This document shows, piece after piece, positions 18,722 to 37,060 of a stretch of 38,034 nt of DNA. Every line of letters begins with the position of its first letter. Positions within the stretch are counted from its first letter, which is position 1. The notes beneath the pieces were generated by a model. That model had not been told where the DNA came from, searched no databases, and saw only the letters and a program-made list of their open reading frames with translations. A program made the position numbers and the translations under genes. The DNA is taken from assembly GCA_020833025.1 (NCBI GenBank), contig JAJHRB010000005.1, positions 1-38,034 on the forward strand, written 5' to 3'. Origin of the DNA: Thermoproteaceae archaeon (lineage in GTDB: Archaea > Thermoproteota > Thermoprotei > Thermoproteales > Thermoproteaceae).

Positions 18722-18746
18722 AGGCCGCTTGCGTGATGCTACGCGC

Positions 18747-21452: not shown

Positions 21453-22805
21453 GTGGTACCGCGCGTTGTAATCTCGGCCGTCAGGGGCATGTCCGGCAAG
21501 ACCATCGCCACGCTCGGCATCATCTACGGGCTTGTGAGGCGCGGGCTTAGAGTCGCGCCGTTTAAGGTGGGGCCCGACTATATCGACCCGACGTACCACC
21601 GCGCGGTGTCTGGCGTCTACAGCAGGAACTTAGACGTCGTGCTGATGGGAGAGCGAGGCGTCGTGATGCGGTTTGTGAAATACTCGCGGGGCGCCGACGT
21701 GGCTATCATAGAGGGCGTGATGGGCCTCTACGACTCGATCGACGGAGTGTCAGAGCTCGGCTCGACGGCCCAGGTGGCTAAGCTGCTCAAGGCCCCCGTA
21801 ATTCTAGTCCTCAGCGGGGAGAGAGTAAACAGGACGCTGCGTGCCGTTGTGAGAGGGCTTAAGTCATTCGACGCGCATGTTGAAATAAGGGGCGTGATTC
21901 TAACTGATGTAGTTCCAGGGCAGGCTGAGAAATTAAAACGGGGGCTGTCCGAGGAGGGGGTAGAGGTGCTCGGCACAATTCCGAGGTCGGGGGCCGTGAG
22001 CAGCGCGTTCGGCTACCGGCATCTAGGCCTCGTGCCCTTCGGCGAGAGAGAGAACGGCGCGGGACTTTTCAACGTGATAGAGAGCTACATCGCGCCGAAT
22101 ATTGACACAGATAGAGTGGTGGCCATAGCGAGAGAGGCCGGAGACCTTGAGTGCCCCGGCGATTGCGGCGAGAGCGGCAGTGAGCGCGCGGGGGGCCGCT
22201 GCAGGGTCGGCATCGTGATGGACAGGGCATTCACGTTCTACTACCCTGAGGTGATAGAGGAGGCCTGCAGGCTCGGCGAGCCCGTTTTTGTAAACTCGCT
22301 CAAGGATCCCGAGCTGCCGCACGTTGATGTTTTAATGATTGGCGGCGGGTTCCCCGAGGTCATGGCGGAGGGGCTGGAGAAGAACAGGTCGTTTAGAAGG
22401 TCCGTCCTTCGTTACGTGGAGGGGGGCGGGAGGCTTTACGCTGAGTGCGGCGGCTTGATGTACATGACGTCATCCATAATAGTCGACGGGTCTGAGTACG
22501 AGATGGTCGGCGCTGTGGATGCGGTCACGGTTGTCTTGAGGAAGCCTGTTGGCAGGGGTTACGCGTGGGGCAGAGTCGTCGCCAGGACGCCAATCGCGCC
22601 GCCCGGCACCGAGCTGCGGGGGCACGAGTTCCACTACTCGAAAGTAATACTGCGGGAGAGGCCGGCGCTGGCAATAAGGCTTGAGCGCGGCGTGGGCATC
22701 GGCGGCGGGTGGGACGGCATTGTCAAGGGCAACATGCACGCGCAGTACCTTCACATACACCCGGAGACCTACAGCGCTCTCGGGGCGCTATGCCGGTCTA
22801 TGTAG
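21453..22805 (+). CDS. dsrN: Cobyrinate a,c-diamide synthase family amidase; in this context the probable siroheme amidase DsrN
   Basis: SGKT, FKVGPDYIDPTYH, IEGVMGLYD, AFTFYYPE, GGGFPE, YAECGGLMY, GHEFHYS, YLHIH. It lies next to SUMT and dsrAB, and there are no other cobalamin genes in the window. Confidence 0.85.
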   Translation: MVPRVVISAVRGMSGKTIATLGIIYGLVRRGLRVAPFKVGPDYIDPTYHRAVSGVYSRNLDVVLMGERGVVMRFVKYSRGADVAIIEGVMGLYDSIDGVSELGSTAQVAKLLKAPVILVLSGERVNRTLRAVVRGLKSFDAHVEIRGVILTDVVPGQAEKLKRGLSEEGVEVLGTIPRSGAVSSAFGYRHLGLVPFGERENGAGLFNVIESYIAPNIDTDRVVAIAREAGDLECPGDCGESGSERAGGRCRVGIVMDRAFTFYYPEVIEEACRLGEPVFVNSLKDPELPHVDVLMIGGGFPEVMAEGLEKNRSFRRSVLRYVEGGGRLYAECGGLMYMTSSIIVDGSEYEMVGAVDAVTVVLRKPVGRGYAWGRVVARTPIAPPGTELRGHEFHYSKVILRERPALAIRLERGVGIGGGWDGIVKGNMHAQYLHIHPETYSALGALCRSM

Positions 22806-23482
22806 TTGGCGCCGGGCCCGGCGACCCCAGGCTGCTCACGCTGAGGGCCGTCGAGCTGCTACAGCAGGCTGACATAGTCGCCTTCGGCGAGCTGGTCCCC
22901 GATGAGATTGTCAGGCTCTACGCGCCGCGGGCGCGCGTCGTTAAACTGGGCCACAGAAGGGCCGAGCACGATGCTGTAATTGACGCCCTTATTGAGGAGG
23001 CCGGGCGGGGTCTCAATGTCGTGGTGCTGAAAAACGGCGATCCAGCAGTGTTCGGCCGCGGCGTGCAGATATGCGCGAGGGCCGAGAGCAGGGGAGTTCC
23101 GTGCGAGATCGTGCCGGGAGTCCCGGCGTTTGCCGCAGCCGCCGCGCTCTTTAAAATAGAGCTCACAAACGGCAAGACTTTAAGGCACGTCTCGCTGTAC
23201 TCCTTCCCCCACTTCAGCGCGGAGACTCTCAGAAGCGCGGCGACGGATACCGTGGTCGTGCACATGATGGGCAATAGACTGGACGTCGTGAGACGCGCAG
23301 TAGAGCAGGGCTGCAGCAGCGAGGCCGAGGTGTTCGTCTGCTACGCGGTATCTCTCGGCGGTGAGTGCCGCCGGGTCGCGCCAAGCGAGCTCCTCAATTA
23401 CAAAAACAAGAGGCCCCTCTTGGTCATAGTCCGCGGGTGCAGGTCGGGCTCAGGCGCAAATGTAAGCCCGAGCTGGCGATAG
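22790..23482 (+). CDS. cobA: Uroporphyrinogen-III C-methyltransferase (SUMT; siroheme pathway)
   Basis: VYVVGAGPGDPRLLTLRA, LKNGDPAVFGRG, EIVPGV. ATG 22790 overlaps the dsrN 3' end. Confidence 0.85.
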   Translation: MPVYVVGAGPGDPRLLTLRAVELLQQADIVAFGELVPDEIVRLYAPRARVVKLGHRRAEHDAVIDALIEEAGRGLNVVVLKNGDPAVFGRGVQICARAESRGVPCEIVPGVPAFAAAAALFKIELTNGKTLRHVSLYSFPHFSAETLRSAATDTVVVHMMGNRLDVVRRAVEQGCSSEAEVFVCYAVSLGGECRRVAPSELLNYKNKRPLLVIVRGCRSGSGANVSPSWR

Positions 23483-23899
23483 CTCGTGAAGCAGGGCCTT
23501 GACCTCGGGGATGTGGCTGTTCAAAACGCACCACCCCACGAATTCCATCAGACTGCGGGGGAGCTTGCCCCCGCTTATAATGGCGTCCAGTACCGGCCTT
23601 AGAGTCTCCTCCCGGAGCCCTAGCTTGCGCGACAGTAATCTCTGAGCGTAAACCTTAGAGCTCCCGTCGAGTTTGTACAGGAGGAGTAGCCCGTAAATCG
23701 TGAGCGTGCACCGGCTGCCGCGCGCGTGCCTCTCGCACTCGATTATGCCGAGGCTTTCAAGCCTCTTTATGAGATTGTAAAGAAACGACGGGTAGAGGCT
23801 CATCTCCTTCATTATTTTGTAGGGAGAGGGGCCGGCGCCGTAAGAGAACTCTTCAAGCGCCACGGCTCTGAGGATGCTGAGGGAGATTGCGTCGAGCAT
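23450..23899 (-). CDS. Winged-helix DNA-binding-like protein
   Basis: SPYKIMKEMSLYPSFLYNLIKRLESLGIIEC...CTLTIYG shows a helix-turn-helix-wing pattern. Confidence 0.65.
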   Translation of the reverse strand: MLDAISLSILRAVALEEFSYGAGPSPYKIMKEMSLYPSFLYNLIKRLESLGIIECERHARGSRCTLTIYGLLLLYKLDGSSKVYAQRLLSRKLGLREETLRPVLDAIISGGKLPRSLMEFVGWCVLNSHIPEVKALLHELSPARAYICA

Positions 23900-23953
23900 G
23901 GAGAGTTGGTTTGCATGAGAATATACACTTTCTTCCTACGACGCGTCGAAAGT

Positions 23954-24607
23954 CTAAAGCCTGTAGATCTGCTTTACGCTAGGGCGTGGCGAGTGCTGGC
24001 GGCGTGCGTACCCGGCGGCATTACTGCAAAGATAAATGCTCCACACGCTGAAGCGCGACAGGAATTTCAAGCTGTTGCTCAGCACTGCCTGGTCCACAGG
24101 GTCTGTCCCTTTATCTACGAGATACGTCAGAACGTAGGAGGTCGAGGCCGCGGGGCTGCAAATGAACGCCTCGCGTATATTAAACCCGAAGTGTCTAATA
24201 GCCCGGCCGAGCAGTATCAAGTACGCTACAAGCATCTCGCTGTCGACATTTAGGGACCAGATACTCTTTACGCGGTTCAAGTACTCCAAGTTTTTAGTGA
24301 GCGCCATCAGTGAAAGCGGGCCCTTAACTGTGGCCGCGTACCCCCGGCTGGATGCCAGCAGTACAAGTCTATTCTCGTTCAGATACTTCACGGCCTTGTA
24401 AACGGTTGACATGCTGTATTTCCTCACCTCCCTAGCGACCTCGTAAGGCGTGAAAGCCCGTGGGTAGTTCCTCACAAAGAAATCGAGAATGCACGCGTGC
24501 GTGTCGCTGAGAGGCGGCACGAGGGCTCTCCACGTCTCTAGAAGCTCCGAGACAAAACCGTGCCCAAGCTGCCCGCCACTCACGCGGGAGAAAAGCGTCA
24601 AAAACAA
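23954..24607 (-). CDS. Winged-helix DNA-binding-like protein
   Basis: FTPYEVAREVRKYSMSTVYKAVKYLNENRLV...YAATVKG shows a helix-turn-helix-wing pattern. The start is uncertain (TTG 24607 or GTG 24583). Confidence 0.65.
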   Translation of the reverse strand: MFLTLFSRVSGGQLGHGFVSELLETWRALVPPLSDTHACILDFFVRNYPRAFTPYEVAREVRKYSMSTVYKAVKYLNENRLVLLASSRGYAATVKGPLSLMALTKNLEYLNRVKSIWSLNVDSEMLVAYLILLGRAIRHFGFNIREAFICSPAASTSYVLTYLVDKGTDPVDQAVLSNSLKFLSRFSVWSIYLCSNAAGYARRQHSPRPSVKQIYRL

Positions 24608-24648
24608 AATTTAGGGTTATTAATACATGCTTGTTACTAGCTGGCGGA

Positions 24649-24984
24649 CTAGACGCAGCCGGTGGGCTTAGGCGCGCCGGCAATCTTACAAGCGCCAGAC
24701 GCGGGGCCCGACGGGAACAGCTGGTAGATCTGCTCCAGCGTGAAGCCAGTCTCCTTGAGCAACATTTTAATTGGCGGGCACACGCCGTAGGTCTCCCAGT
24801 ACTCCCTCAGGTACTTAACGACCTTCCAGTGATCCGGCGTCATCTGCTGTATGCCCTCTATCTCGCGGGCCATCCACTCGGCGACCTTCTCGTTCCAGTT
24901 CTCTGGATTCTGCATGAAGCACTCCTCGTCAAGCACAACGGTTGTGTCGTCGACCTTGTACTCTCCCGGGCACTTTATTGGCAT
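24649..24984 (-). CDS. dsrC: Sulfur carrier DsrC
   Basis: HWKVVKYLREY, LFPSGPASGACKIAGAPKPTGCV with both C-terminal Cys. The N-terminus closely resembles Pyrobaculum DsrC as I recall it. Confidence 0.97.
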   Translation of the reverse strand: MPIKCPGEYKVDDTTVVLDEECFMQNPENWNEKVAEWMAREIEGIQQMTPDHWKVVKYLREYWETYGVCPPIKMLLKETGFTLEQIYQLFPSGPASGACKIAGAPKPTGCV

Positions 24985-25027
24985 GTGACCCCCTTGTTCG
25001 GTAGGATAAAAGAGTTATTGCGACGAG

Positions 25028-25466
25028 TCAGCGCAATAGCTGGCACTCCACGCCGTATTTCTCCCTCAGGCGGCTGAGCAGCCCTGGCAGCTCCTCCTCA
25101 AACACCCTGGCAATTATCCTGTCCCAGTCGAGCGCTATGTCGCTGACGCGCAGCTTGATCTCCAGCGACGGCAGCGCGAGGTTTTTCGAGCAGTCAAAGG
25201 GCGCCAGCCCGATCACGAGCGTTGTTGTCATGCCGGCCCACGGGAAGTTCCTCTTAGTGACGGGAATGCCAGCGCTCGAGAGCTCCTCGCAGCGGCCGCT
25301 CACTCTGACCTTTCTGTCGAGGACGAACAGGAGGAGGTAGCCGTCCTCAAGGAGTCTCGAGAGCACCAGCAGGCGGTAGTCAGGGACGAAGAAGTAGTCC
25401 TCCTCGGAAGTCTGCTGGGCGAGGAAAAAACTTCAGGGTTCCCGGCCTGACGACTCTAAATAGCAT
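25028..25466 (-). pseudogene. Frameshifted hypothetical gene between dsrB and dsrC (~145 aa if repaired)
   Basis: ATG 25466 overlaps the dsrB end and reads MLFRVVRPGTLKFF. Removing one T from the T6 run (plus-strand A6 at 25425-25430) fuses it in frame to LAQQTSEEDYFFVPDYRLLVLSRLLEDGY... through to the stop at 25028. Confidence 0.7.
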
Positions 25467-26619
25467 CCCTGACGCGCCTCCAGACCCACTCGCCGCGCCA
25501 CCTGTACGCCATGAACGTGCGCGCGTGCTCCGGCATGTACATGTAGTCGGCCGGGAGCCTCGGGAGCCCGAGCAGCTCGGTGAATCTCGCCCAGCTTATT
25601 CTGTCTATTAAGTCGCCTATTCTCTCGCCCGGCCTTGCGTTCTGGCGCCAGACCTCCACTATTTTCTTGACCACGGCAACCACCTCGGGGTATCTCGGCG
25701 GGTTGGACGGCAGCCACGGAATCAGCATGCGCCCAACTCTGGGCCCGCTCCCTGTGTTCGACAGCCTGCCCCCGACGATTATGCCCCAGCCCACCTCCTC
25801 CGGCTCGTAGTCGAAGGCGTCGCAGTTGTCCTTGCACCTGACGCAGTTGATGCACCGGGCCTCTATAAGCTCGAGCGTAAACTTCTCGCCAACTCTCTTA
25901 ACCCTGAGAGCACCCACGGGGCATACTTGCACCATGAACACCTTCGACTCCGGTATCCTGGCGAGAGCCTTCGGCGGCGGTATGCACACCGGCAGTATGT
26001 CCTCTCGGATTATCGGCGCGGCGCCCCACACGCCTATAATTGATATATCCATTGCCGTGCCGCCAGCGCAGGCGTTCGGGCAGCCCGACACGAAGACTCT
26101 GAGCTTTGCCGGCAGCGGGATCTCGCCGGTGAAGTACGGCTTGAGCTGGTCGCCAATGGCCTTCGCCAATGATACCGCATCGGTAACTCCAATCTGGCAC
26201 GTGAGGAATGCCGTACACGCGTTGATGCCCCACAGTGTGTTCCTCCATCCGCCGACGAGGAAGCCGAGCTTCTCCACTTCCTCCTTTATTTTGAGCGCCT
26301 TGTCGAGCGAGTCCGTGATGAACTCGACGTTAGCCGCCGTGGTGATCCTTAACGCCCCGATGCCGTACTTGTCGGCAATGTCGCAGAACTTCAGCAGGGT
26401 GTCAGCGCTGAACCTAGCGTTTGGCGTGCCGGAGACCTTGATAGTGAATACCCTCTCTCCGGTCTCCGATATGTGCTCGATTATGCCGTAGCCGTGGAAC
26501 CTCCTCTCCTTCCACTTGCCATAGTTGCGCCTGATTACATCTGGCAGCCAGTACTCCAGGCCCTTGTGCGCCGGGAATACCAGCTCTATTGCCCCCCTGC
26601 CAGCTGGCGGGGCGCTCAT
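25456..26619 (-). CDS. dsrB: Dissimilatory sulfite reductase beta subunit
   Basis: LPDVIRRNYGKW, FCDIADKYG, RITTAANVEF, CTAFLTC...CPNAC, ferredoxin CPVG...CINCVRC, GERIGDLIDRISW. Confidence 0.95.
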   Translation of the reverse strand: MSAPPAGRGAIELVFPAHKGLEYWLPDVIRRNYGKWKERRFHGYGIIEHISETGERVFTIKVSGTPNARFSADTLLKFCDIADKYGIGALRITTAANVEFITDSLDKALKIKEEVEKLGFLVGGWRNTLWGINACTAFLTCQIGVTDAVSLAKAIGDQLKPYFTGEIPLPAKLRVFVSGCPNACAGGTAMDISIIGVWGAAPIIREDILPVCIPPPKALARIPESKVFMVQVCPVGALRVKRVGEKFTLELIEARCINCVRCKDNCDAFDYEPEEVGWGIIVGGRLSNTGSGPRVGRMLIPWLPSNPPRYPEVVAVVKKIVEVWRQNARPGERIGDLIDRISWARFTELLGLPRLPADYMYMPEHARTFMAYRWRGEWVWRRVRDAI

Positions 26620-27869
26620 ATCCCTAGCTCTTGCTTGACTTTTTTAGCATACTCGGCGTAAACCTGGCGCTCCTCCGGCGGCAGTATCCTGTACGGCACA
26701 TCGTCTGGCATCTTTTCATAGAATGCCGGCATCTCTATCAGGAACTTGTCAAGCTCTGCCTCCTTTACGAACCTCTGTATGCCCAGGTATATTATTACAT
26801 CGGCGATGCGCTGCTTCGGCATCCCGTACTTGTCCCAGACCTCCCATATCTTCTCCATCATGTCAACTACGCGCTTGGCGCTCACGTCTGGGGGCAGGTA
26901 GCCGACGAACCAGCCTAGCTTCACGCCGTAGTACCCCTTGTTGTTCCCGCCGAGGAGCACGGCAATTCTCTTCTCTCTTCCGGGCTTTATTGCAGGGTGA
27001 GCGAGCCTTATGCACTCCATGCACTTCACGCACCTCTTCTCGTTAATTCTCAGCTCCTGCCTGACGGGATCCCAGGATATTGCGCCGCTCACGCACCCTC
27101 TCTCCAGCTCGCGCGGGTCAACCTCGCCGCGCTTGACCTTCTCCCTAAGCAGCTCCTGATCGACCTCCGGCGCGCCCTTCCACGTGCCCAGCAGCCCGAG
27201 ATCTCCTCTGTTGGCTCTGGCGCAGTCAAACGGGCAGCCCGATAGCTTAGGCTTGAACTTGTAGTGGAAGTTAGGCGCCCTTATGTTCTCGTGAACTCTC
27301 GGGTCGAGGTGTAGGTCGCACCACAACTTCAGCGTATCGTAACACGCAAACTCGCAGAGCGCGGGGCCCACGCACGCGGCCAGTGCCCTAATGGCGTCGG
27401 CGCTCCCGCCGACGTCGGTGCCAAGCTCGCGCAGCTTGTCAGCCACTACCTCGGCGTACTCCTTCTTCGTGATATTTATGATCATGTTGCCTGTCTGCCC
27501 TACCACCTCCAGCAGGCCAATTGCGTACTCTCTAATTGCGTCGAGCAGCTTGCGGAACCAGTCCGTCTTGAGGAATCTGCCCGGCGTGTGGAAGACTCTC
27601 AGGTGTATCTCCTCGCCCGGCAGGCCGAGCCACGGCCTTGCAATTCTGGCCATTGTCCCCGTCAGGTACCTCGTCCTGACGGCGCTTGGTGCCCACGGGC
27701 TCTTGCCCACCACGAGACCGGCGCCGTAAACGTGCAGCGGATAGCCGGTCTTTCTCAGCTCCGTGACGTGACTGGGCCACGGACCCTTCTCAAGCTCCTT
27801 CAAGTACTGCTCGGCCAGCTCCTTCAGCTTGTCGGGCGGCGGAACCCCACGCTTTGGGGGATACGCCAT
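26616..27869 (-). CDS. dsrA: Dissimilatory sulfite reductase alpha subunit
   Basis: LEKGPWPSHVTEL, HLRVFHTPG, DVGGS, CVGPALCEFACYD, YKFKPKLSGCPFDCAR, CVKCMECI. Confidence 0.96.
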   Translation of the reverse strand: MAYPPKRGVPPPDKLKELAEQYLKELEKGPWPSHVTELRKTGYPLHVYGAGLVVGKSPWAPSAVRTRYLTGTMARIARPWLGLPGEEIHLRVFHTPGRFLKTDWFRKLLDAIREYAIGLLEVVGQTGNMIINITKKEYAEVVADKLRELGTDVGGSADAIRALAACVGPALCEFACYDTLKLWCDLHLDPRVHENIRAPNFHYKFKPKLSGCPFDCARANRGDLGLLGTWKGAPEVDQELLREKVKRGEVDPRELERGCVSGAISWDPVRQELRINEKRCVKCMECIRLAHPAIKPGREKRIAVLLGGNNKGYYGVKLGWFVGYLPPDVSAKRVVDMMEKIWEVWDKYGMPKQRIADVIIYLGIQRFVKEAELDKFLIEMPAFYEKMPDDVPYRILPPEERQVYAEYAKKVKQELGI

Positions 27870-27908
27870 GGTTACAAGTGCAGGGAGATATTAAAAATTA
27901 TATTACAT
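27870..27908 (-). promoter_or_regulatory. Candidate dsrA promoter
   Basis: The minus strand reads TATAATTTTTAATAT ~20 nt before the dsrA ATG. Confidence 0.55.
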
Positions 27909-30130: not shown

Positions 30131-30191
30131 GCGGCATTCCTCGCAACTAAGAAACAGCTTTTTTAAAATGTGCCCCCAGGACGTCGTGTCC

Positions 30192-31079
30192 ATGTGTCCC
30201 CTGGCCGTTTTCATGTACGTGGCAGTGGCGCTTTTCATTGCAGGCATTGCCAGAATGGCGCGCAGGTATGCCACGATGCCCATGCACTTAAGGTGGGAGC
30301 TGTACCCCGTGCCGCACGAGGTTGGCCACGAGCACGGCGGCTCGTATCTTGAATACGTCGAGTGGTGGAATAGGAAATTCCCCAAAAACAGACTGGCGGA
30401 GATCTCGGAGCTTCTCAAGGAGCTGCTATTTATAGTCAGGCTGTACAGGGGCAGGCGCACTGTCTGGTGCTTCAGCTTTCCATTTCACGGCGGGGTCTAC
30501 CTGCTGCTGCTCTGGGGCGCGTCGCTGGTACTGCTTGCTGTCTCCGGCGCCCTCATCCCGGCAGATCTACACTCCGCGGTGAGCGCCGCGTCGCTGGCGC
30601 TCGGATACCTGGGCGCCGCCGCCGCAACGTTCGGCATAGCCGGCCTGACCGCGTTGAGGCTGACGAGAACAATGAGAATGTACACAACGCCCCTCGAGTA
30701 CTTCAACAACACTTTCATACTCGTAGTTCTCGTGTCCGGCTTTCTCGCGGCGTCGCAGGACCCGTCGTTCTCAACGGCTGTCGCCTTCGTGAGGCACATG
30801 CTCGGAGGCCCCGCCCCCGAGCTGCCGCCCCTGGTGGCGGCGCACGTGATACTGCTCGGGCTGCTGGTAATATACATCCCGTATACGAAAATCGCTCACT
30901 TCATAGGCAAGTACTTCACGTACCACAAGGTGCTGTGGGACTCAGAGCCTCTGAGAATTGGAGGTGCCGTGAACGAGCACTTAAATAGGAAAATATTAGA
31001 AGCGCTGAGCCGCCACGAGATCACGTGGAGCGCGCCGCACATACCCCGCGGCAGGAAGTGGGCGGAGGTGGGGGCATGA
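30192..31079 (+). CDS. dsrM: DsrM/NarI-like membrane subunit (copy 2; one heme His apparently missing)
   Basis: MHLRWELYPVPHE, FHGGVY, AHVILL, YIPYTKIAHF. ATG 30192 is preferred because the TATA-like TTTTTTAAA abuts ATG 30168. Confidence 0.8.
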   Translation: MCPLAVFMYVAVALFIAGIARMARRYATMPMHLRWELYPVPHEVGHEHGGSYLEYVEWWNRKFPKNRLAEISELLKELLFIVRLYRGRRTVWCFSFPFHGGVYLLLLWGASLVLLAVSGALIPADLHSAVSAASLALGYLGAAAATFGIAGLTALRLTRTMRMYTTPLEYFNNTFILVVLVSGFLAASQDPSFSTAVAFVRHMLGGPAPELPPLVAAHVILLGLLVIYIPYTKIAHFIGKYFTYHKVLWDSEPLRIGGAVNEHLNRKILEALSRHEITWSAPHIPRGRKWAEVGA

Positions 31080-32683
31080 GCGCCGAGAGCGTGATTAGGC
31101 TGCTCAGCCGCGAGGACGTCAAGCAGGTCGTTAAGCTTGACGTGTCAAAGCTGCTCCCGCTCGACCCGCTGCCAGACGAGCCTCCGATTGAGGAGCCGCC
31201 GGCTAAGCTCGCCGAGCTTTATGACTTCAGCCTCGACGGCCACGTCGCGGTGGGAATACCCAGGCCCAAGACAGAGGAGGAGAAGAGGAAGCTTGTCCAG
31301 GGGTTCCTCGAGGGCCTCAGGAAGCTGATAACGAGAGGCGACAACTGGACGTTCCTCCAGCCGCTGCTGCTAACGCTCGAGTTCTGCGCCAAGTGCCAGG
31401 CGTGCGCCGAGGCCTGCCCCATTTACCTGGCCAGCGGCAGGCAGGAGGTCTACAAGCCGATAGTGCGGGCCGAGGTCCTCAGGAGGATTTACAAGAGGTA
31501 CTTCACGAGGCCGGGGAGGCTCTTCGGCAAGTTTGCCTCGGGCGACGTAGAGGTGAACTGGACGCTCGTCTACAGGCTGATCGAGCTGGCCTACAGGTGC
31601 ACGCTGTGCAGGAGGTGCGCGCAGGCGTGCCCCATGAGCGTGGACAACGGCCTCATAAGCAGGGAGATCAGGAAAATTGCGAGCCAGGAGCTAGGCTACG
31701 CCCCCAAGGAGGTTCACGAGAAGGGCACCGTCCAGCACCTCAAGGTCGGCTCGTCAACCGGCATGACGCCCAAGGGCTTGCTAAAGACCGTGAAGTTCCT
31801 CGAGGAGTACATCCGCGAGAAGACGGGCAAGAGCATAAAGATTCCGGTGGACGAGAAGGGCGCCGACATACTACTGGTGCACAACGCCGGCGAGTTCCTC
31901 TCGTGGCCCGAGAACCCCGCGGCGTTTGCCATAATATTCGAGGAGGCCGGTATGAGCTGGACAATGTCGAGCGAGCCCTTAGGCTATGACATCGTCAACT
32001 ACGGGGCGTGGTATGACGACGTGCAGCTGGCTAAGATAGTGCTGAGGCAGGTAGAGGTCGCGAGGAAGCTCGAGGTGAAGAAGATCGTCATAGGCGAGTG
32101 CGGCCACGCAACAAAGGCTCTGATCGTCGTGGCCGACAGAGTACTGCCGAAGGAGCTCAACATCCCGAGAGAGTCTGCGCTGCCGCTGCTGGCGGAGATC
32201 GTCGAGAGAAAGAAGCTCAACCTTGATCCAACGCGCAACAACTTCCCCGTGACCCTTCACGACCCGTGCAACGTGGTAAGGCTCTCCGGCATAGTCGAGC
32301 CGCAGCGCAGGGTCCTCAGGGCAATAGCTCCGCAGTTCAGGGAGATGGAGCCGCACGGCGTGTATAACTACTGCTGCGGCGGCGGCAGTGGCTTTGCCAT
32401 AATGCACTCGTACAACTTCGACCAGTGGAGGAACAAGGTGTCGGCCAGAATGAAGGTGAGGCAGATACTCAACGCCTTCCGCGACGTGCTCGACCCGTCG
32501 CGCTACCCCTTCAAGTACGTCTGCGCCCCGTGCAGCAACTGCAAGGGCGCGATCAGGGACGCCATAAGGCACTACGGCCTCTGGGAGCGCTACAGGATAA
32601 ACTACGGCGGGCTCGTCGAGCTCATGGTAAACGCGATGGCAGACCTGCCGAAGCCCTACATCGACTACAGCGAGTTCCACTAG
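31076..32683 (+). CDS. dsrK: DsrK/HdrD-like Fe-S subunit (copy 1)
   Basis: CAKCQACAEACP, CTLCRRCAQACP, GECGHA, HDPCN, CCGGGSG, CAPCSNCK. Its ATG overlaps the dsrM-2 stop (ATGA). Confidence 0.9.
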   Translation: MSAESVIRLLSREDVKQVVKLDVSKLLPLDPLPDEPPIEEPPAKLAELYDFSLDGHVAVGIPRPKTEEEKRKLVQGFLEGLRKLITRGDNWTFLQPLLLTLEFCAKCQACAEACPIYLASGRQEVYKPIVRAEVLRRIYKRYFTRPGRLFGKFASGDVEVNWTLVYRLIELAYRCTLCRRCAQACPMSVDNGLISREIRKIASQELGYAPKEVHEKGTVQHLKVGSSTGMTPKGLLKTVKFLEEYIREKTGKSIKIPVDEKGADILLVHNAGEFLSWPENPAAFAIIFEEAGMSWTMSSEPLGYDIVNYGAWYDDVQLAKIVLRQVEVARKLEVKKIVIGECGHATKALIVVADRVLPKELNIPRESALPLLAEIVERKKLNLDPTRNNFPVTLHDPCNVVRLSGIVEPQRRVLRAIAPQFREMEPHGVYNYCCGGGSGFAIMHSYNFDQWRNKVSARMKVRQILNAFRDVLDPSRYPFKYVCAPCSNCKGAIRDAIRHYGLWERYRINYGGLVELMVNAMADLPKPYIDYSEFH

Positions 32684-32714
32684 GCGCCCCCGCAAACCCT
32701 GCTCCCTTTTTCCT

Positions 32715-33698
32715 GTGATAGTTCAGGTCGAGATCTCCAGCGCGTGCAACGCGCGCTGCGCGTACTGCCCCGCGGCCGTGCTGCGCGGCGAGTGGGTGCC
32801 CCAGCTGATGAGCGAGCACCTCTTCAGCGTGCTGGTGCGGGAGCTACATGGCCTGCAGCCTGAGTACGTGCACCTCCAGGGGTGGGGCGAGCCACTGCTC
32901 CATCCGGAGTTCGACTCCTTTGCCGAGATGGCACTGGAGGTGTCCAGGGCCGGCGTGACCACCAATGCAACGCTTATCGACAGGCACCTCGACGCGGTCT
33001 CGGGGCTGGACCTAGTCGCCGTGACTTTCGCCGGCGCGAGGCCGGGGACTCACAATTTCTACAGGCCGGGCTGCGACTTCGACAGAGTTGTGAGCAATGT
33101 TAGACTGCTGGCAAGGAGGAGGCGCGGCAGGATGGTGGCAGTTTACATGCTCCTCGGCGACAACTACAGGGAGCTCCCGGAGTTTGTCAGCCTGGCAGCC
33201 GAGCTCGGCTTCGACGAGGTGAAGGCAAGCAACGTGAACTACCTGCCGACAGCCGAGGTCGCCGCGATGAGGGCGTTCTCCGACCTATTTGAGCCCCCGA
33301 GGCGCGACGTCGAGAGGGCGCTGGAGGAGGCCGCGGGGAGAGCGGAGAGGCTGGGGCTCTCGTTCAGGTCTGATCTCGTCGTGCCGAGCGAGCTCGCCGA
33401 GTGCCCCGAGCGGCCGACGAATGCCATATTTATCGGCGTGCGGGGCGAGGTCTCGCCGTGCGTTTACCTGAACCTCCCGACGCGCAGCGGCACCATAAGG
33501 CGCGTCTTTAACGGGAGGGAGGTGACAGTCGAGAAGGTCGTCCTCGGCAAGGTTGGCGAGAGGCCGCTGAGGGAGGTGCTCAAGAGGGCGAGAGAGTTCG
33601 CGCGGAGGTTCGAATATAGGAGATACAACCTGGATGTCGGGAACCCGGCGGAGCCCCCTCGCGCATGCCTGACGTGCTACAGGCTCTACGGGGTGTGA
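32715..33698 (+). CDS. Radical SAM protein with a C-terminal SPASM/Twitch-like domain
   Basis: CNARCAYC, HLQGWGEPLLHP, TTNAT; auxiliary Cys in ECPE, SPCVY and CLTCY. Confidence 0.9.
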   Translation: MIVQVEISSACNARCAYCPAAVLRGEWVPQLMSEHLFSVLVRELHGLQPEYVHLQGWGEPLLHPEFDSFAEMALEVSRAGVTTNATLIDRHLDAVSGLDLVAVTFAGARPGTHNFYRPGCDFDRVVSNVRLLARRRRGRMVAVYMLLGDNYRELPEFVSLAAELGFDEVKASNVNYLPTAEVAAMRAFSDLFEPPRRDVERALEEAAGRAERLGLSFRSDLVVPSELAECPERPTNAIFIGVRGEVSPCVYLNLPTRSGTIRRVFNGREVTVEKVVLGKVGERPLREVLKRAREFARRFEYRRYNLDVGNPAEPPRACLTCYRLYGV

Positions 33699-33717
33699 TT
33701 ATCTTTACCTTCTTTCA
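33699..33717 (+). terminator. Pyrimidine/T-rich tract after the radical SAM gene (convergent intergenic region)
   Basis: TTATCTTTACCTTCTTTCA directly follows the stop codon, consistent with archaeal U-rich termination. Confidence 0.4.
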
Positions 33718-33790
33718 ACCCCTCCTGAGGTTTCGTCACGCTTAAAACGGCCGGGACTTCGGGAGGCCTTATGGCGCGCAAGAACCGGCT

Positions 33791-35233
33791 TTACTTCCTC
33801 TTGGGGACTATCGCCCTGTAAACTAGGTCCATCAGCCCCCCGAATGTTATGTTCTTGCCGTACATCTTGTTGAGGTCCATCATTATGCTGTTTAGCGTGC
33901 CCTTGCACATTGAGCAGGGCCTGACGACGTGCTCCGCGCCCACCTTCAGAGCGCACTCGTACCACAGCCTGGCGTACTGCAGCCTGAGCGGCTTCATTTC
34001 GTCTGCCAGCATTCCCGCCTGCCCGCCGCAGCACCAGTTCAGCTGGCGGTTCTGCGGGCACTCGGCCCACCTCTTGACGACGTGGTTCATGATGAACCTG
34101 GGCTCCTCGTAGAGGTCCCCGCCCCTGCTGTACTGGCACGGGTCCTGGTACATGTAAACCTTGTCGGGGTTCTGCGAGGGGTCCAGCGCTATTGCGTTCT
34201 CCTTTATCGCCTTGACGACCAGGTGGTGTATGTGGTATGTCCTTATGCCGCGCCTCTCAAGCTCCGGCGCGACGACGTTCTTCCACGCCCTCCACCCGTG
34301 GCCGCACTCGCCGAATATTCCAACCTTGACGCCCAGCATCTCTGCCGCCTCGATGTACCTCTGCGCGCAGTGCCTCAGGATCCTCTCGTGGCTCCAGACC
34401 CCGAAGTTCGCGACCTCAGTGTTGTACGTGTTTACGGCGAACTTGACGCCGTACTCGTGCAGGAACATGATGTAGCCCTTCAGAGTCTCGGTGTTCAGGA
34501 ATAAGTCCGCCGAGGAGGGCCAGAGAATGGCCTCCGGCCAGTCGGGGTCTCCCGGCGAGAGCTCGCGGACTGGCTTGCTCCCCTTGAATAATATCATTTT
34601 CTTCTTGTCGTGCCTGTAAATGCAGAACTCCGGCGACACGCCCTTCTCGCTCTCTATTTCCTTCACGAAGTACGTTATGATGTTCTCGACGGCTGCCGGC
34701 GTTATCCTCATCAGGTTGCCCGTCTCGATGAACCCGTCGATGGACATGAGGGCCCACCTGCTCGCCAGCCCTGCCTCCAGCAGCACCCCGCGGACCGCCC
34801 TCGTGATGTCCGCCTGGTCCACGCCGAAGGGACAGACGTAGCCGCAGCGCCTGCACGTCAGGCACTGCCAGTAGTAGGTGTAGAGCAGGTCGAGCGCCCT
34901 CTCGTCCGCCCGCTTCCTGCGCTTGATCACGTCACGCAGCAGCTCGGCGCGCCCGACTGGGGAGTTCCTCACGTCCCGCGTCGCCAGATATGTCGGGCAC
35001 GCATCGATGCACGCGCCGCAGTGGACGCACGTGTCGACGGCAATTCTTATGTTTCTGTTGCGCGCGTATTCCTCCCTGAGCCTCCTCTCGACGTACCCGT
35101 ACCTGTCAGCCGGTATGCCGCCCAAGCCCGCTGCTTTGTGTACCTTCAGCAGCAGGCTCTCGGGCGCCTTAATCGGCTTGATGTTTGACGTGTCGCCCGG
35201 CCTGAATTCGGGAACGGCGTGGCCGTGCGCCAT
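33791..35233 (-). CDS. dsrK: DsrK/HdrD-like Fe-S subunit (copy 2)
   Basis: CVHCGACIDACP, CLTCRRCGYVCP, GECGHGWR, QDPCQ, CCGGQAG, PCSMCK. Confidence 0.85.
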   Translation of the reverse strand: MAHGHAVPEFRPGDTSNIKPIKAPESLLLKVHKAAGLGGIPADRYGYVERRLREEYARNRNIRIAVDTCVHCGACIDACPTYLATRDVRNSPVGRAELLRDVIKRRKRADERALDLLYTYYWQCLTCRRCGYVCPFGVDQADITRAVRGVLLEAGLASRWALMSIDGFIETGNLMRITPAAVENIITYFVKEIESEKGVSPEFCIYRHDKKKMILFKGSKPVRELSPGDPDWPEAILWPSSADLFLNTETLKGYIMFLHEYGVKFAVNTYNTEVANFGVWSHERILRHCAQRYIEAAEMLGVKVGIFGECGHGWRAWKNVVAPELERRGIRTYHIHHLVVKAIKENAIALDPSQNPDKVYMYQDPCQYSRGGDLYEEPRFIMNHVVKRWAECPQNRQLNWCCGGQAGMLADEMKPLRLQYARLWYECALKVGAEHVVRPCSMCKGTLNSIMMDLNKMYGKNITFGGLMDLVYRAIVPKRK

Positions 35234-35317
35234 CGTCAGCTTTGTATTCGTGCTTTTAAACGCTGTTCCACGCAGGCGAGGAAGAACGTTTATTAGAGAC
35301 GCTCGGGAGGGCGGAAC
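35234..35317. promoter_or_regulatory. Divergent dsrK-2/yeiH promoter region
   Basis: Minus-strand TTTAAAAG ~20 nt before ATG 35233; plus-strand TTTATTA ~23 nt before GTG 35318. Confidence 0.55.
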
Positions 35318-36832
35318 GTGTCTCAGCAGAAGATCGACTGGTCCTCGATGTACAAGAAGGAGGACTGGTGGGCTCTGTGGATAGGCCTCCTAGTATTTTT
35401 CCTGTGCCTTGGCGTGGTCGGCGGTGCTGACTTAATGGGCTGGGTTAACCTCGTGGCGGGGAACTGGCTTGATCCCGCCAAGTCTGTCACTGTTACCACA
35501 AAGCAGTACTCGTGGCTGCACCCAGCAGCGTCCGTCATCTTGACGTATCTGTTCATCCTCGCGATATTCACAATAGGAGCGGCGGCGATGGGGCTCAACG
35601 TAAAGAAATACATCGCGGGCTTCACGTTCATCTACTGGGTCACGTTTCTCTGCTGGTGGGTGGGCTCTTGGGCCTACGTTGCCGCCACGCCGCCTGATTG
35701 GCCCAAGCTGAAGATCCCCTGGGCGCTCTCGCTGACGCCCGAGGCGGGCTTCATCTTCGCGCTGATACTGGGTCTCCTCATCGGCAATTTCGCCAGGGGG
35801 TTCACAGAGAGGATAAAGGAGGCGGCGCGCCCCGAGTGGTACATAAAGACGGCAATAGTCCTACTGGGCACGCTGATTGGCGTCAAGGCAATAATGATAG
35901 ACCCCAGAATTCTGGCGAATTATCTCTTCAGAGGCCTGTGCGCGATCGTCGAGGCGTACTTAATCTACTGGGCGCTGGTTTACGTCTTCGCGAGGAGGCT
36001 CTTCAAGTTCACGAGAGAGTGGGCGGCGCCTCTGGCGTCCGGCATCTCCGTCTGCGGCGTCTCCGCCGCCATAGCCACCGCGGCCGCAATAAAGGCGCAC
36101 CCGAGAATACCCATCATGGTCTCGTCCCTCGTCATAGTGTTCGCGGTGGTCGAGCTGTTAATACTGCCGTGGTTTGCCACGTGGGTGATGGGAGAGCAGC
36201 CGCTCGTGGCGGGCGCGTGGATGGGCCTGGCGGTCAAGACTGACGGCGCTGCCGCAGCCTCTGCGGCTATGACCGAGACTCTGATCTTCGCGAAGCACCC
36301 GGAGTGGGCGCCGTACCTCAAGGGCTGGATTCTGAACGCGGGCGTCGTTACAAAAATATTCATCGATATCTTCATAGGCGTCTGGGCATTCTTACTGGCA
36401 GTGATCTGGGTCACCAGCATCGAGAGAAGGCCCGGCGAGAGGGTGAGGAAGCTGGAGATCTGGTTCAGGTTCCCGAAGTTCGTGCTGGGGTACTTTGCCA
36501 CGTTCCTCATAGCAATGGCCGTCGGCTCCTGGCTCGTCTCGCAGTTTCAGGCGGCAGGCCTGTCGGCCGTTGACGCCGTTAAGAAGGCAAGTGCAGTGAT
36601 GGACGGCGGCCTGGCCAAGGAGACCGACGGGTTCCTGAGGAAGTTCTTCTTCGCGCTGACGTTCTTCTCGATCGGGCTGGTTTCGGACTTCAGAGTCCTG
36701 AGGCAGGAGGGCTACGGCAAGATGGCGCTCGTCTACTTCCTGGCGCTCTTCGGCTTCATCATATGGATAGGCCTGTTCATAAGCTGGCTGTTCTTCCACG
36801 AGGTGCACTGGCTGTTCATCGAGAGGACATGA
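35318..36832 (+). CDS. YeiH/UPF0324 putative sulfate(-ite) exporter family membrane protein
   Basis: Polytopic protein with KEDWWA, RPEWYIKTAIVLLG, ASGISVCGVSAAIA, GAWMG, RFPKFVLGY and FFSIGL. Confidence 0.88.
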   Translation: MSQQKIDWSSMYKKEDWWALWIGLLVFFLCLGVVGGADLMGWVNLVAGNWLDPAKSVTVTTKQYSWLHPAASVILTYLFILAIFTIGAAAMGLNVKKYIAGFTFIYWVTFLCWWVGSWAYVAATPPDWPKLKIPWALSLTPEAGFIFALILGLLIGNFARGFTERIKEAARPEWYIKTAIVLLGTLIGVKAIMIDPRILANYLFRGLCAIVEAYLIYWALVYVFARRLFKFTREWAAPLASGISVCGVSAAIATAAAIKAHPRIPIMVSSLVIVFAVVELLILPWFATWVMGEQPLVAGAWMGLAVKTDGAAAASAAMTETLIFAKHPEWAPYLKGWILNAGVVTKIFIDIFIGVWAFLLAVIWVTSIERRPGERVRKLEIWFRFPKFVLGYFATFLIAMAVGSWLVSQFQAAGLSAVDAVKKASAVMDGGLAKETDGFLRKFFFALTFFSIGLVSDFRVLRQEGYGKMALVYFLALFGFIIWIGLFISWLFFHEVHWLFIERT

Positions 36833-37029
36833 GCGGCGAGCACCAGCCCTGGCTCCCGGCAGAGACGAAGCTCATTGCAGTCTCGCTGATACTCGCGGTG
36901 GTGCTGCTAGGGCTGCTCTGGTGGATCGCGACACTGCTCATGCCGGCCGTGCCGTCAATTGTCGCGGCGCGGGACGGGCAGTACGCGAGAGCCCTGCCGC
37001 GTCTGCTTAGGAGGGAAGGCGGGAGATAG
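36829..37029 (+). CDS. Small single-pass membrane protein coupled to yeiH
   Basis: The ATG overlaps the yeiH stop (ATGA). MSGEHQPWLPAETKLIAVSLILAVVLLGLLWWIATLL forms one hydrophobic helix. Confidence 0.65.
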   Translation: MSGEHQPWLPAETKLIAVSLILAVVLLGLLWWIATLLMPAVPSIVAARDGQYARALPRLLRREGGR

Positions 37030-37038
37030 CCAAAGGGC

Positions 37039-37060
37039 GCGGGCAAACCCGCACTTTTTT
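37039..37060 (+). terminator. Hairpin plus T-tract terminator
   Basis: GCGGG-CAAA-CCCGC followed by AC and T6, 10 nt after the microprotein stop. Confidence 0.55.

What the first reader, a model, noticed from the sequence alone, without database searches (positions are those of the whole stretch)
21453..37060. Expanded archaeal Dsr locus with a flavoprotein, a radical SAM enzyme and an exporter-microprotein built in
Seen: dsrABC and siroheme-tailoring genes (DsrN-like amidase, SUMT) sit together with two DsrM, two DsrK, a single-Cys Nox/CoADR-type flavoprotein, a radical SAM protein, YeiH plus a microprotein, and two wHTH proteins. dsrD, dsrEFH, dsrJOP and dsrL are not in the window. Known: DsrAB forms a DsrC trisulfide that DsrMK reduces, and Thermoproteales have a minimal, deep-branching Dsr set. 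Inference: this may be a distinct variant with two electron-entry routes to DsrC (membrane quinol and soluble NAD(P)H), its own cofactor maturase and a sulfur-oxyanion export valve. I do not know of this accessory set being characterised as a system.
Basis: partly seen in the sequence, partly recalled or inferred. Interest (0 to 1): 0.72.

Follow-up and report, generated by a model that had tools for sequence, protein, structure and literature searches.

The report
Pyrobaculum sulfite-reductase locus with accessory module
This is the usual sulfite-respiration gene cluster of Pyrobaculum-type archaea, but its radical SAM enzyme, YeiH-type membrane permease and tiny membrane protein turn out to be an unstudied unit that accompanies sulfite-metabolism genes in many archaea and bacteria.

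Summary
There are two corrections. The microprotein is a 66-aa single-TM protein at 36829-37029. A conserved gene between dsrB and dsrC was missed, and here it is frameshifted.

The accessory set is not peculiar to this genome. Two same-genus relatives (G007, G016) carry all of it except the flavoprotein beside dsrAB.

The rSAM and the long YeiH permease form a conserved pair. They stay adjacent in Thermoproteales even far from dsrAB. Neither gene was found in the 11 relatives without dsrA. In 47 rSAM loci from other phyla with full flanks, 30 have YeiH within 2.5 kb and 39 have YeiH, dsrAB or dsrK nearby. So the rSAM looks like a partner of YeiH or DsrM2K1 rather than a Dsr cofactor maturase.

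The microprotein is conserved after YeiH in Archaeoglobi and NC10. It is predicted to bind YeiH (ipSAE 0.68, best control 0.00).

The Nox/CoADR gene is found only in this population, so an NAD(P)H route to DsrC is unsupported. The two DsrMK pairs are about 25% identical and are not recent duplicates.

The scan's other notes on this stretch are sibling notes on the same window.

The parts
21453..22805 (+). DsrN-like sirohydrochlorin/cobyrinate a,c-diamide synthase (siroheme amidase by context)
   Evidence: TIGR00379, 420 bits against a 261 cut-off; PF07685 and PF01656. 64-72% identical copies lie next to SUMT in relatives' dsr loci.
22790..23482 (+). SUMT-like tetrapyrrole methyltransferase, overlapping the dsrN end
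   Evidence: PF00590, 142 bits. The cobA/cysG models score below their cut-offs. The DsrN-SUMT pair is conserved in 15 of 21 relatives' loci.
23450..23899 (-). wHTH1, a MarR/ArsR-like winged-helix regulator (149 aa)
   Evidence: No Pfam hit. Atlas features score 0.93 to ArsR/MarR clusters, and structure TM is about 0.5 over residues 1-82. Homologues lie in 6 relatives' dsr loci, and beside YeiH-rSAM in G017 and G006.
23954..24598 (-). wHTH2, a putative HTH protein (214 aa)
   Evidence: No Pfam hit. Atlas gave only weak HTH leads at 0.82. 28-41% identical homologues occur in 7 relatives' dsr loci.
24649..24984 (-). DsrC
   Evidence: PF04358, 115 bits. The C-terminus has two Cys ten residues apart followed by V. 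88-90% identical to the nearest relatives.
25028..25466 (-). orfX, a conserved small gene in the dsrD position. Here it is split by a +1 frameshift in a T6 run (25425-25430).
   Evidence: Relatives encode 131-161 aa with the start overlapping the dsrB end. The same T6 run is present in the independent contig L057. The family is tiny: 14 hits among 1.84e9 representatives. The model has pLDDT 93; the best structural match is a T3SS-chaperone/YbjN-like fold at Z 6.3 only.
25456..26619 (-). DsrB
   Evidence: TIGR02066, 430.7 bits against a 341.5 cut-off.
26616..27869 (-). DsrA (divergent, on a long branch)
   Evidence: TIGR02064, 384 bits against a 392.85 cut-off. At most 60% identical to any relative. 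Long branch of 0.53 in the tree.
27909..28682 (-). DsrM1, a NarI-type membrane cytochrome b and first gene of the dsrM1-A-B-orfX-C string
   Evidence: PF02665, 112.7 bits. It pairs with the DsrK2 type in G008, G024b, G038 and G027.
28790..30130 (+). Nox/CoADR-type single-Cys flavoprotein, a lineage-specific insertion
   Evidence: PF07992, PF00070 and PF02852. Cys47 aligns with the redox Cys of NOX 6ruz and CoADR 4fx9, and the C-terminal YAPP motif is replaced. There is only one near relative (98%, same population); the next are 43% or less. None was found at relatives' dsr loci.
30168..31079 (+). DsrM2, the second NarI-like membrane subunit (start possibly 30213)
   Evidence: PF02665, 22.8 bits against a 22.9 cut-off. 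41% identical in G007 and G016, and 29-38% in Chloroflexi loci. It is always next to the DsrK1 type.
31076..32683 (+). DsrK1, an HdrD-like Fe-S/CCG subunit of the widespread (bacterial-like) type
   Evidence: NF045796 DsrK, 329.8 bits (below the 400 cut-off); Fer4_8 and CCG domains. 67% identical in G007 and G016, and 57-60% in Dehalococcoidia and Anaerolineae. About 25% identical to DsrK2.
32715..33698 (+). radical SAM enzyme with one auxiliary cluster (twitch-like partial SPASM)
   Evidence: PF04055 and PF13186. Cys 11/15/18 plus 230/249/318/321, and an invariant LQGWGEPL motif. Model pLDDT 95.6; nearest PDB entries are DesII, BlsE, CteB, SkfB and anSME. It is adjacent to YeiH and/or dsrMK across domains.
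33791..35233 (-). DsrK2, the HdrD-like partner of DsrM1 (Thermoproteales type)
   Evidence: NF045796, 235.6 bits; Fer4 and CCG domains. 67-70% identical in the nearest relatives, and adjacent to DsrM1 in many of them.
35318..36832 (+). long YeiH-family permease (504 aa, about 13 TM)
   Evidence: PF03601, 67.5 bits. 57-65% identical in some Pyrobaculum and 60-62% in Archaeoglobi. Paired with the rSAM in most genomes that have it.
36829..37029 (+). 66-aa single-TM microprotein, translationally coupled to YeiH
   Evidence: ATGA overlap. It was called as a gene in L057. The TM motif LPxExKLxAxSLxLAxxLL is conserved after YeiH in Archaeoglobi, a Pyrobaculum MAG and NC10. Complex model: ipSAE 0.68 against a best control of 0.00.

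Best explanation
The stretch is the lineage-typical dissimilatory sulfite-reduction supercluster of Pyrobaculum. It is made of two layers plus one insertion.

Layer 1 is the archaeal core. It comprises the dsrM1-dsrA-dsrB-orfX-dsrC string, DsrK2, DsrN with a SUMT-like methylase for siroheme amide, and two winged-helix regulators. By homology, DsrAB reduces sulfite onto DsrC, and DsrM1K2 re-reduces the DsrC trisulfide with quinol electrons.

Layer 2 is a cross-domain accessory module. It comprises a second, bacterial-like DsrM2K1 pair, a radical SAM (twitch-type) enzyme, and a long YeiH permease with a single-TM subunit. I infer that YeiH plus the microprotein moves sulfite/bisulfite (or sulfate) across the membrane. 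I also infer that the rSAM matures or services a component of this YeiH/DsrMK module, with an unknown substrate, rather than tailoring the DsrAB cofactor.

The insertion is the Nox/CoADR-type flavoprotein, added only in this population. It most likely reduces CoA-disulfide, persulfide, polysulfide or O2 with NAD(P)H. Nothing shows that it feeds DsrC.
For: - Gene identities.
- Conservation of the set: G007 and G016 hold every accessory gene except Nox within 20 kb of dsrA. G005, G002 and G006 hold YeiH, rSAM, orfX and wHTH1 (G005 and G002 also wHTH2). The gene order differs between genomes while the clustering is kept.
- rSAM and YeiH are adjacent in 12 of the relatives searched, several far from dsrAB: G017 about 540 kb away, G031 about 275 kb, G025 about 970 kb. 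They are the only conserved neighbours in six such loci.
- Neither gene was found in the 11 relatives without dsrA.
- Beyond the order: of 47 rSAM loci with at least 3 kb on both sides, 30 have YeiH within 2.5 kb, 15 have dsrA/B, 16 have dsrK, and 39 have at least one. 7 of 10 genomes without dsrAB beside the rSAM have dsrA elsewhere.
- In a betaproteobacterial contig the order is aprBA, LysR, YeiH, rSAM, then sat and soxAZ.
- The microprotein is conserved, and the complex model passes: 0.68 against a best control of 0.00. That mark was reached by 58 of 80 solved complexes and 2 of 110 mismatched pairs. The runs agree in at least 73% of contacts, and partner pLDDT is at least 62.
- Nox: one near relative, then 43% or less. 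Relatives' paralogues are 31-35% identical and unlinked to dsr.
Against: - All functional links rest on synteny and co-occurrence. Related genomes are not independent samples, and the YeiH-rSAM cassette has probably moved horizontally (62% identity between Pyrobaculum and Archaeoglobi).
- There is no expression or biochemical evidence.
- The Salmonella YeiH is the short form, without an rSAM or a microprotein.
- G024 (same family) and G012 (same genus) have dsrABC without the rSAM. The rSAM is therefore not needed for Dsr as such.
- Nox sits 37 nt upstream of dsrM2-dsrK1-rSAM on the same strand. An unrelated archaeal dsr locus (L087) carries a CoADR-rhodanese flavoprotein between dsrB and dsrC. 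A real Dsr-linked role for Nox therefore cannot be dismissed.
- The complex prediction is a model, not a measurement.
Confidence: 0.68

Rival explanations
1. This is a distinct Dsr variant in which the Nox/CoADR flavoprotein gives a second, soluble NAD(P)H route to DsrC (or to DsrM2K1) beside the quinol route. The rSAM is the locus's cofactor maturase, and YeiH is an export valve.
For: - Nox lies 37 nt upstream of dsrM2-dsrK1-rSAM on one strand.
- It keeps the redox Cys but replaces the C-terminal YAPP motif of NOX/CoADR, which hints at another substrate.
- A CoADR-rhodanese gene sits inside another archaeal dsr operon, L087.
- DsrL shows that NAD(P)H-linked partners of Dsr exist (PMC7596348, listed; title and abstract only, not read).
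Against: - Nox was found at no relative's dsr locus and has only one near relative among 5.8e9 proteins.
- It is the genome's only member of the family; no orthologue of the paralogue present in all 17 congeners searched was found. It may simply be the housekeeping enzyme.
- It belongs to another family than DsrL.
- The rSAM tracks YeiH, not DsrAB, and is not Ahb-like.
Confidence: 0.12
2. The rSAM is a tetrapyrrole or Fe-S cofactor maturase for the Dsr machinery, acting for example on siroheme amide, DsrM heme b or the DsrK non-cubane cluster. Its adjacency to YeiH is then secondary.
For: - In Anaerolineae the order is rSAM-dsrM2-dsrK1-dsrN without YeiH (L142, L152, L158, L159).
- In Methanodesulfokora the rSAM is 113-133 nt from dsrC.
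- Genome-level co-occurrence with dsrA.
- The nearest NCBIfam families are putative metalloenzyme maturases.
Against: - YeiH is the commonest neighbour (30 of 47 loci), and the only conserved one where the pair stands alone.
- Betaproteobacterial genomes G041, G042 and G044 have the pair without a dsrA match over the cut-off.
- AhbD scores 20 bits against a 500 cut-off, with better Ahb-like genes elsewhere in the genome.
- G024 and G012 have dsr without it.
Confidence: 0.2
3. The accessory genes are only neighbours. They sit in a rearrangement-prone respiratory island and have no functional tie to sulfite reduction.
For: Gene order is shuffled between species. Pseudogenised rSAM or YeiH copies exist in G001, G002, G003, G004 and G030. 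The pair is often far from dsrAB.
Against: Clustering persists through the shuffling. Neither gene was found in any dsrA-lacking relative. The same association recurs in separate phyla and with a deeply separate DsrA clade. The chance of adjacency to a roughly single-copy gene is well under 1%, against the 64% observed.
Confidence: 0.07

Closest known systems
Minimal archaeal DsrABCMK(N) sulfite-reduction set (Neukirchen, Pereira and Sousa 2023, PMC10504309)
   Same: dsrA, B, C, M, K and N are present and clustered. There is no dsrD, no dsrJOP and no dsrEFH. The lineage is Thermoproteales.
   Different: The paper's text mentions no radical SAM gene or transporter. This locus adds a second DsrMK pair of another type, rSAM, YeiH plus microprotein, orfX, two regulators and Nox.
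   Same: Every gene of the window's locus except Nox lies within about 17 kb. dsrM1-A-B-orfX-C is in the same order.
   Different: Identities are only 41-90%, with DsrA at 59%. The order of the accessory genes differs. There is no flavoprotein. orfX is intact there and frameshifted here.
YeiE-YeiH sulfite-stress system of Salmonella (PMC12880088)
   Same: A PF03601 permease tied to sulfite. A regulator gene lies next to it: LysR in bacteria (also in L078), and wHTH1 beside YeiH in G017 and G006.
   Different: The window's YeiH is about 150 aa longer, has a single-TM partner and is paired with an rSAM. It sits in a sulfite respirer, where import is as plausible as export.
CoADR / NOX / Npsr single-Cys flavoproteins (PDB 6ruz, 4fx9, 3ntd, 8a56; Thermococcus proteins annotated as NADH:polysulfide oxidoreductase)
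   Same: Same domain set and the same redox Cys. 39-43% identity to Thermococcales, Thermotoga and metagenomic homologues.
   Different: It scores below every equivalog cut-off (CoADR 188 against 579). The C-terminal YAPP motif is replaced, and there is no rhodanese domain. Its position inside a dsr locus is unique to this population.
SPASM/twitch radical SAM enzymes (anSME, SkfB, CteB, BtrN, DesII, BlsE)
   Same: A partial TIM-barrel rSAM core plus a C-terminal auxiliary-cluster domain; TMq 0.60-0.66.
   Different: 11-18% identity. Only four C-terminal Cys. It belongs to no named family. The conserved partner is a permease, not a peptide or a sugar pathway.
DsrD (allosteric activator of DsrAB, PMC8794893)
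   Same: orfX occupies the same place, directly after dsrB and translationally coupled to it.
   Different: No sequence or fold similarity. DsrD is a winged helix of about 65 aa. The orfX model is an alpha/beta chaperone-like fold of about 145 aa. Any analogy rests on position only.

Membership tests
DsrAB dissimilatory sulfite reductase | Paired alpha and beta subunits matching the dsrA and dsrB equivalog models | tested here: met
   DsrB scores 430.7 against 341.5. DsrA scores 384 against 392.85, marginally under the cut-off, but over the full length and best against dsrA. It falls in the Thermoproteales DsrA clade.
DsrC | PF04358 fold with two conserved Cys in the C-terminal arm | tested here: met
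   115 bits. The C-terminus is C-x10-C-V.
DsrMK | A NarI-type cytochrome b next to an HdrD-like protein with two Fer4 motifs and a CCG domain | tested here: met
   Two such pairs by Pfam, with CCGG motifs in both K subunits. The NCBIfam DsrK equivalog scores 329.8 and 235.6, below the 400 cut-off, and DsrM2 is borderline (22.8 against 22.9). M1 and K2 are separated here but adjacent in relatives.
DsrN (siroheme amidase) | CobB/CbiA-type a,c-diamide synthase encoded with dsr genes | tested here: met
   TIGR00379, 420 against 261. Linked to dsr in 15 of 21 relatives' loci. Activity on siroheme was not testable.
YeiH / PF03601 permease | Match to PF03601 above the gathering score | tested here: met
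   67.5 against 24.5. The TIGR00698 subfamily scores only 26.8 against 232.6, so this is a distant, longer branch of the family.
CoA-disulfide reductase (equivalog) | Score above TIGR03385/NF007123, and the C-terminal YAPP(F) motif | tested here: not met
   188 against 578.8 and 171 against 458. The motif is replaced (alignment). The redox Cys is kept.
DsrL | NfnB/GltD-like iron-sulfur flavoprotein | tested here: not met
   The flavoprotein has Pyr_redox_2 plus the Pyr_redox_dim architecture, with no Fe-S domain.
AhbC/AhbD (siroheme-to-heme rSAM enzymes) | Match to TIGR04545 or TIGR04546 | tested here: not met
   20 bits against 500. Three better matches (198-267 bits) lie elsewhere in the genome.
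Tungsten-cofactor oxidoreductase rSAM maturase (TIGR04317) / TIGR04311 | Score above the cut-off | tested here: not met
   90.7 against 380 and 78.4 against 400. These are still the nearest families for all 18 aligned members.
SPASM-domain rSAM | Seven-Cys motif binding two auxiliary clusters | tested here: not met
   Only four conserved C-terminal Cys (230, 249, 318, 321). This is enough for one cluster, so it is twitch-like. PF13186 matches weakly.
DsrD | PF08679 match | tested here: inconclusive
   No match in the genome, but the search also stayed silent in all control genomes.

The most novel reading that the evidence does not exclude
The radical SAM enzyme, the long YeiH permease and its single-TM subunit form a dedicated, rSAM-dependent sulfite (or sulfate) translocation system. 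It would be a widespread but unrecognised accessory of dissimilatory sulfur metabolism in both domains. It would also be the missing oxyanion transporter of archaeal sulfite and sulfate reducers, which show no SulP or DASS matches (one weak DASS hit in one Archaeoglobus species) in the published survey (PMC5840216).
Probability: 0.3. Interest if true: 0.75.

Novelty: new variant of a known kind. Interest (0 to 1): 0.58.

Why it matters
Dsr-based sulfite reduction is regarded as one of the oldest respirations, and its accepted minimal archaeal set is DsrABCMK(N). How sulfite or sulfate crosses the membrane in archaeal reducers is unsettled. No radical SAM enzyme is part of any Dsr model I could find.

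A permease, microprotein and rSAM unit recurs beside dsr, dsrMK or apr/sat genes from Pyrobaculum to Dehalococcoidia, NC10 and Betaproteobacteria. That gives three concrete, testable candidates. A cultivable same-genus relative (G007, probably P. islandicum) and Archaeoglobus appear to carry the unit. The flavoprotein itself looks like a local curiosity.

Tried and rejected
- The 112-aa ORF at 25028-25366 as a complete gene: rejected. Relatives show about 35 more N-terminal residues. The first 14 codons lie in another frame here.
- The 88-aa ORF at 36763-37029 as the microprotein: the conserved product is the 66-aa version starting at 36829.
- The antisense ORF at 36816-37154: no family and no conservation.
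- Ahb-like role for the rSAM: rejected.
- Fusion proteins that might name the rSAM's partner: only one longer homologue, with no extra domain.
- aprA next to the stand-alone YeiH-rSAM pair in Thermoproteales: not adjacent.
- Conserved third neighbour of the pair: none.
- orfX fold: Foldseek against the PDB gave nothing, the Atlas gave nothing named, and VIA-align's best was Z 6.3, below the level that can be trusted.
- DsrD family search: uninformative because the controls were silent.
- Literature: no paper in the searchable library links a radical SAM gene or YeiH to dsr loci. Subscription papers were not searchable.
- Earlier scan notes searched by words and by sequence: nothing beyond sibling notes on this window.


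Full report
**What is there**

On the plus strand:
- a CobB/CbiA-type a,c-diamide synthase (DsrN-like, TIGR00379 at 420 bits) overlapping a SUMT-like methylase
- later, nox (28790-30130), dsrM2, dsrK1 (most likely from 31076, overlapping the dsrM2 stop) and a radical SAM gene. Spacers are 37, -4 and 31 nt.

On the minus strand:
- two small proteins with no Pfam family
- dsrC (24649-24984; PF04358; C-x10-C-V end)
- a small ORF, then dsrB, dsrA (4-nt overlap) and a NarI-type dsrM1
- dsrK2 further on, alone on the minus strand

A 504-aa PF03601 (YeiH) permease follows, with a 66-aa ORF whose ATG overlaps its stop codon.

The window is contig C24 of a 1.56-Mb, 94%-complete MAG. An independent JGI contig (L057) has the identical gene order, at 96-98% protein identity for the three proteins compared. 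The rest of the window holds purine and aromatic biosynthesis, PEP carboxylase and LutAB-like genes. No dsrD, dsrEFH, dsrJOP or dsrL was found among the ORFs of about 100 aa or more that were scanned.

**Is the accessory set linked to dsrAB in relatives?**

I cut 20-40 kb around the best dsrA match of 21 loci from the 40 nearest genomes and searched them with the window's proteins.
- G007 and G016 carry every accessory gene except Nox: wHTH2, YeiH, orfX, DsrM1, rSAM, DsrK2, wHTH1, DsrK1, DsrM2, DsrN and SUMT.
- G005, G002 and G006 carry YeiH, rSAM, orfX and wHTH1 (G005 and G002 also wHTH2).
- A same-family genome (G024, first locus) has the core, DsrN/SUMT and both regulators, but no rSAM or YeiH nearby.
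- Counts within 20 kb of dsrA, out of 21 loci: DsrC 18, DsrN 15, SUMT 15, DsrK2 15, DsrM1 13, wHTH2 7, wHTH1 6, orfX 6, rSAM 5, YeiH 5, DsrM2K1 2, Nox 0.

Gene order differs from genome to genome while the clustering survives. Equally, the locus is not a special variant of this genome.

**The radical SAM enzyme goes with YeiH**

Whole-genome searches of the 40 relatives show the two genes side by side in 12 genomes. These include genomes where the pair lies hundreds of kilobases from dsrAB (G017, G031, G025, and G033 on another contig). In six such loci they are the only conserved neighbours. In G017 and G006 a wHTH1 homologue sits next to them. Neither gene was found in the 11 relatives that lack dsrA. 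Among the 29 with dsrA, 20 have YeiH and 17 the rSAM. Related genomes are not independent, so this is a pattern and not a statistic.

The family is not confined to the order. It has an invariant LQGWGEPL motif and four conserved C-terminal Cys. A scan of species-representative genomes returned 559 relatives. In the 80 most similar loci I looked for the window's proteins. Of the 47 loci with at least 3 kb on both sides:
- 30 have YeiH within 2.5 kb
- 15 have dsrA/B within 10 kb
- 16 have dsrK within 10 kb
- 39 have at least one of these

Examples:
- Dehalococcoidia: dsrK-M-C-N-B-A, then rSAM-YeiH
- NC10 and a Chloroflexi MAG: rSAM, YeiH, dsrAB, dsrN, dsrC
- Geocrenenecus/Caldarchaeales: YeiH, rSAM, dsrBA, dsrKM, SUMT
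- Methanodesulfokora: rSAM directly before dsrC
- Anaerolineae: rSAM-dsrM-dsrK-dsrN
- Archaeoglobi: rSAM next to YeiH
- A betaproteobacterial contig: aprBA, a LysR gene, YeiH, rSAM, then sat and soxAZ

Seven of ten genomes without dsrAB beside the rSAM have dsrA elsewhere. The dsrA genes of these other phyla form a clade deeply separate from the Thermoproteales one. The association is therefore not inherited with one dsrAB lineage.

**What the rSAM is not**

- It scores 20 bits against AhbD, while three better Ahb-like genes lie elsewhere in the genome.
- It is far below the cut-offs of its nearest named families, TIGR04317 and TIGR04311.
- Its confident model (pLDDT 95.6) resembles generic SPASM/twitch enzymes such as DesII, BlsE, CteB, SkfB and anSME at TMq 0.60-0.66. 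This does not name a substrate.
- No informative fusion exists.

**YeiH and the microprotein**

YeiH is the main determinant of sulfite-stress resistance in Salmonella (PMC12880088). A published survey of sulfate transporters in sulfate reducers found no SulP or DASS matches in Caldivirga, Vulcanisaeta and Archaeoglobus, apart from one weak DASS hit in one Archaeoglobus species, and did not consider this family (PMC5840216).

The window's YeiH is a long form. It is 57-65% identical to some Pyrobaculum copies and 60-62% to Archaeoglobi copies, but only about 41% to those of G007 and G016.

A small ORF follows the long form in Archaeoglobi, a Pyrobaculum MAG and an NC10 genome. These share a TM helix motif (LPxExKLxAxSLxLAxxLL). 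The Archaeoglobi versions add an N-terminal four-Cys zinc ribbon that the window's copy lacks.

A complex prediction with both alignments passes. ipSAE is 0.68 against a best control of 0.00. That mark was reached by 58 of 80 solved complexes and 2 of 110 mismatched pairs. The runs agree in at least 73% of contacts, and partner pLDDT is at least 62. The helix packs on YeiH residues 200-235 and 488-492. This supports binding but does not show it. The direction of transport is open.

**Two DsrMK pairs**

DsrK1 and DsrK2 are about 25% identical, so they are not recent duplicates. DsrM1K2 is the pair found next to dsrAB throughout Thermoproteales. DsrM2K1 occurs among the relatives only in G007 and G016, and is 57-60% identical to the DsrK of Dehalococcoidia and Anaerolineae, where it sits beside the rSAM. 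I read DsrM2K1, the rSAM and YeiH plus microprotein as one mobile accessory layer.

**The flavoprotein**

It has the NOX/CoADR domain set and the redox Cys (PCGIPY). It scores below all equivalog cut-offs and replaces the C-terminal YAPP motif. Among 5.8 billion proteins it has one near relative (98%, the L057 population), and then nothing above 43%. The paralogues in all 17 congeners are 31-35% identical and lie far from dsr. This genome has no other family member. It could therefore be the housekeeping enzyme in a new place, or the housekeeping copy could lie in the missing 6% of the genome.

One independent parallel exists. An uncultured archaeon (L087) has a CoADR-rhodanese (Npsr-type) gene between dsrB and dsrC. 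A role in persulfide or polysulfide handling is thus plausible. An NAD(P)H route to DsrC is not supported.

**Other points**

- The gene between dsrB and dsrC (orfX) encodes 131-161 aa in relatives, and its start overlaps the dsrB end. In the window and in L057 the first 14 codons are out of frame because of a T6 run at 25425-25430. The family has only 14 detectable members. Its confident model has no trustworthy structural match.
- The genome also carries aprA and sat on contig C37.
- The window's DsrA sits on a long branch at the base of the Thermoproteaceae/Vulcanisaeta DsrA clade, with an uncertain placement.

**Verdict**

This is a known kind of system (DsrABCMK(N)) in its genus-typical extended form, with one lineage-specific insertion. 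The interesting part is the rSAM, YeiH and microprotein unit (with DsrM2K1). It is conserved across domains, tied by context to dissimilatory sulfite metabolism, and not described in any paper I could search.

Noticed in passing
window 25028-25466 (minus strand); T6 run at 25425-25430; L057 4104-4545: orfX, the conserved gene between dsrB and dsrC, is split by a +1 frameshift in a T6 run. The same run is present in an independent contig with 96-98% identical proteins. It is therefore either a real, fixed frameshift (pseudogene, slippage or internal restart) or a shared assembly error.
   Followed up: partly
L087 6203-7873 (minus strand): An uncultured archaeon carries a 556-aa CoADR-type flavoprotein with a C-terminal rhodanese domain (Npsr-like) between dsrB and dsrC. 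The same locus also holds rSAM, YeiH, the microprotein and dsrN.
   Followed up: partly
G000 contig C37 2619-5984: The window's genome has aprA (over the cut-off) and an ATP sulfurylase gene side by side. Together with the dsr locus, the full sulfate-reduction gene set may be present.
   Followed up: partly
whole genome G000: No orthologue was found of the NOX/CoADR paralogue present in all 17 congeners searched. The dsr-locus gene is the only family member in this 94%-complete MAG.
   Followed up: yes
window 26616-27869: DsrA is at most 60% identical to any relative and sits on a long branch (0.53) at the base of the Thermoproteaceae/Vulcanisaeta DsrA clade. By contrast, DsrC is 88-90% and DsrN and DsrK2 about 70% identical to the nearest relatives.
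   Followed up: partly
relatives G008, G017, G012, G004, G024 (second locus), G001: Many same-order genomes have a second type of dsr locus in which a further dsrAB-like pair (43-45% identical) lies next to the main dsrAB, divergently in most. These loci lack rSAM, YeiH and, except in G024, orfX.
   Followed up: no
L088, L089, L091, L106, L112, L135 (downstream of YeiH): In Archaeoglobi the YeiH-associated microprotein carries an N-terminal CPNCG...CxxCG zinc-ribbon domain before the conserved TM helix. The Pyrobaculum and NC10 versions lack it.
   Followed up: partly
G002 815697-816266 and 838048-839439; G004 C34 9229-10195; G030 1802613-1803633; G001 C14; G003 C1: Several relatives hold rSAM or YeiH copies interrupted by stop codons, so the module is decaying in some lineages.
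   Followed up: no
window 18729-21140: LutA-like (CCG domain) and LutB-like (LUD plus Fer4) genes and a 118-aa ORF lie directly upstream of the dsr locus. A homologue of the 118-aa ORF lies 3 kb from YeiH in G004 (L170).
   Followed up: no
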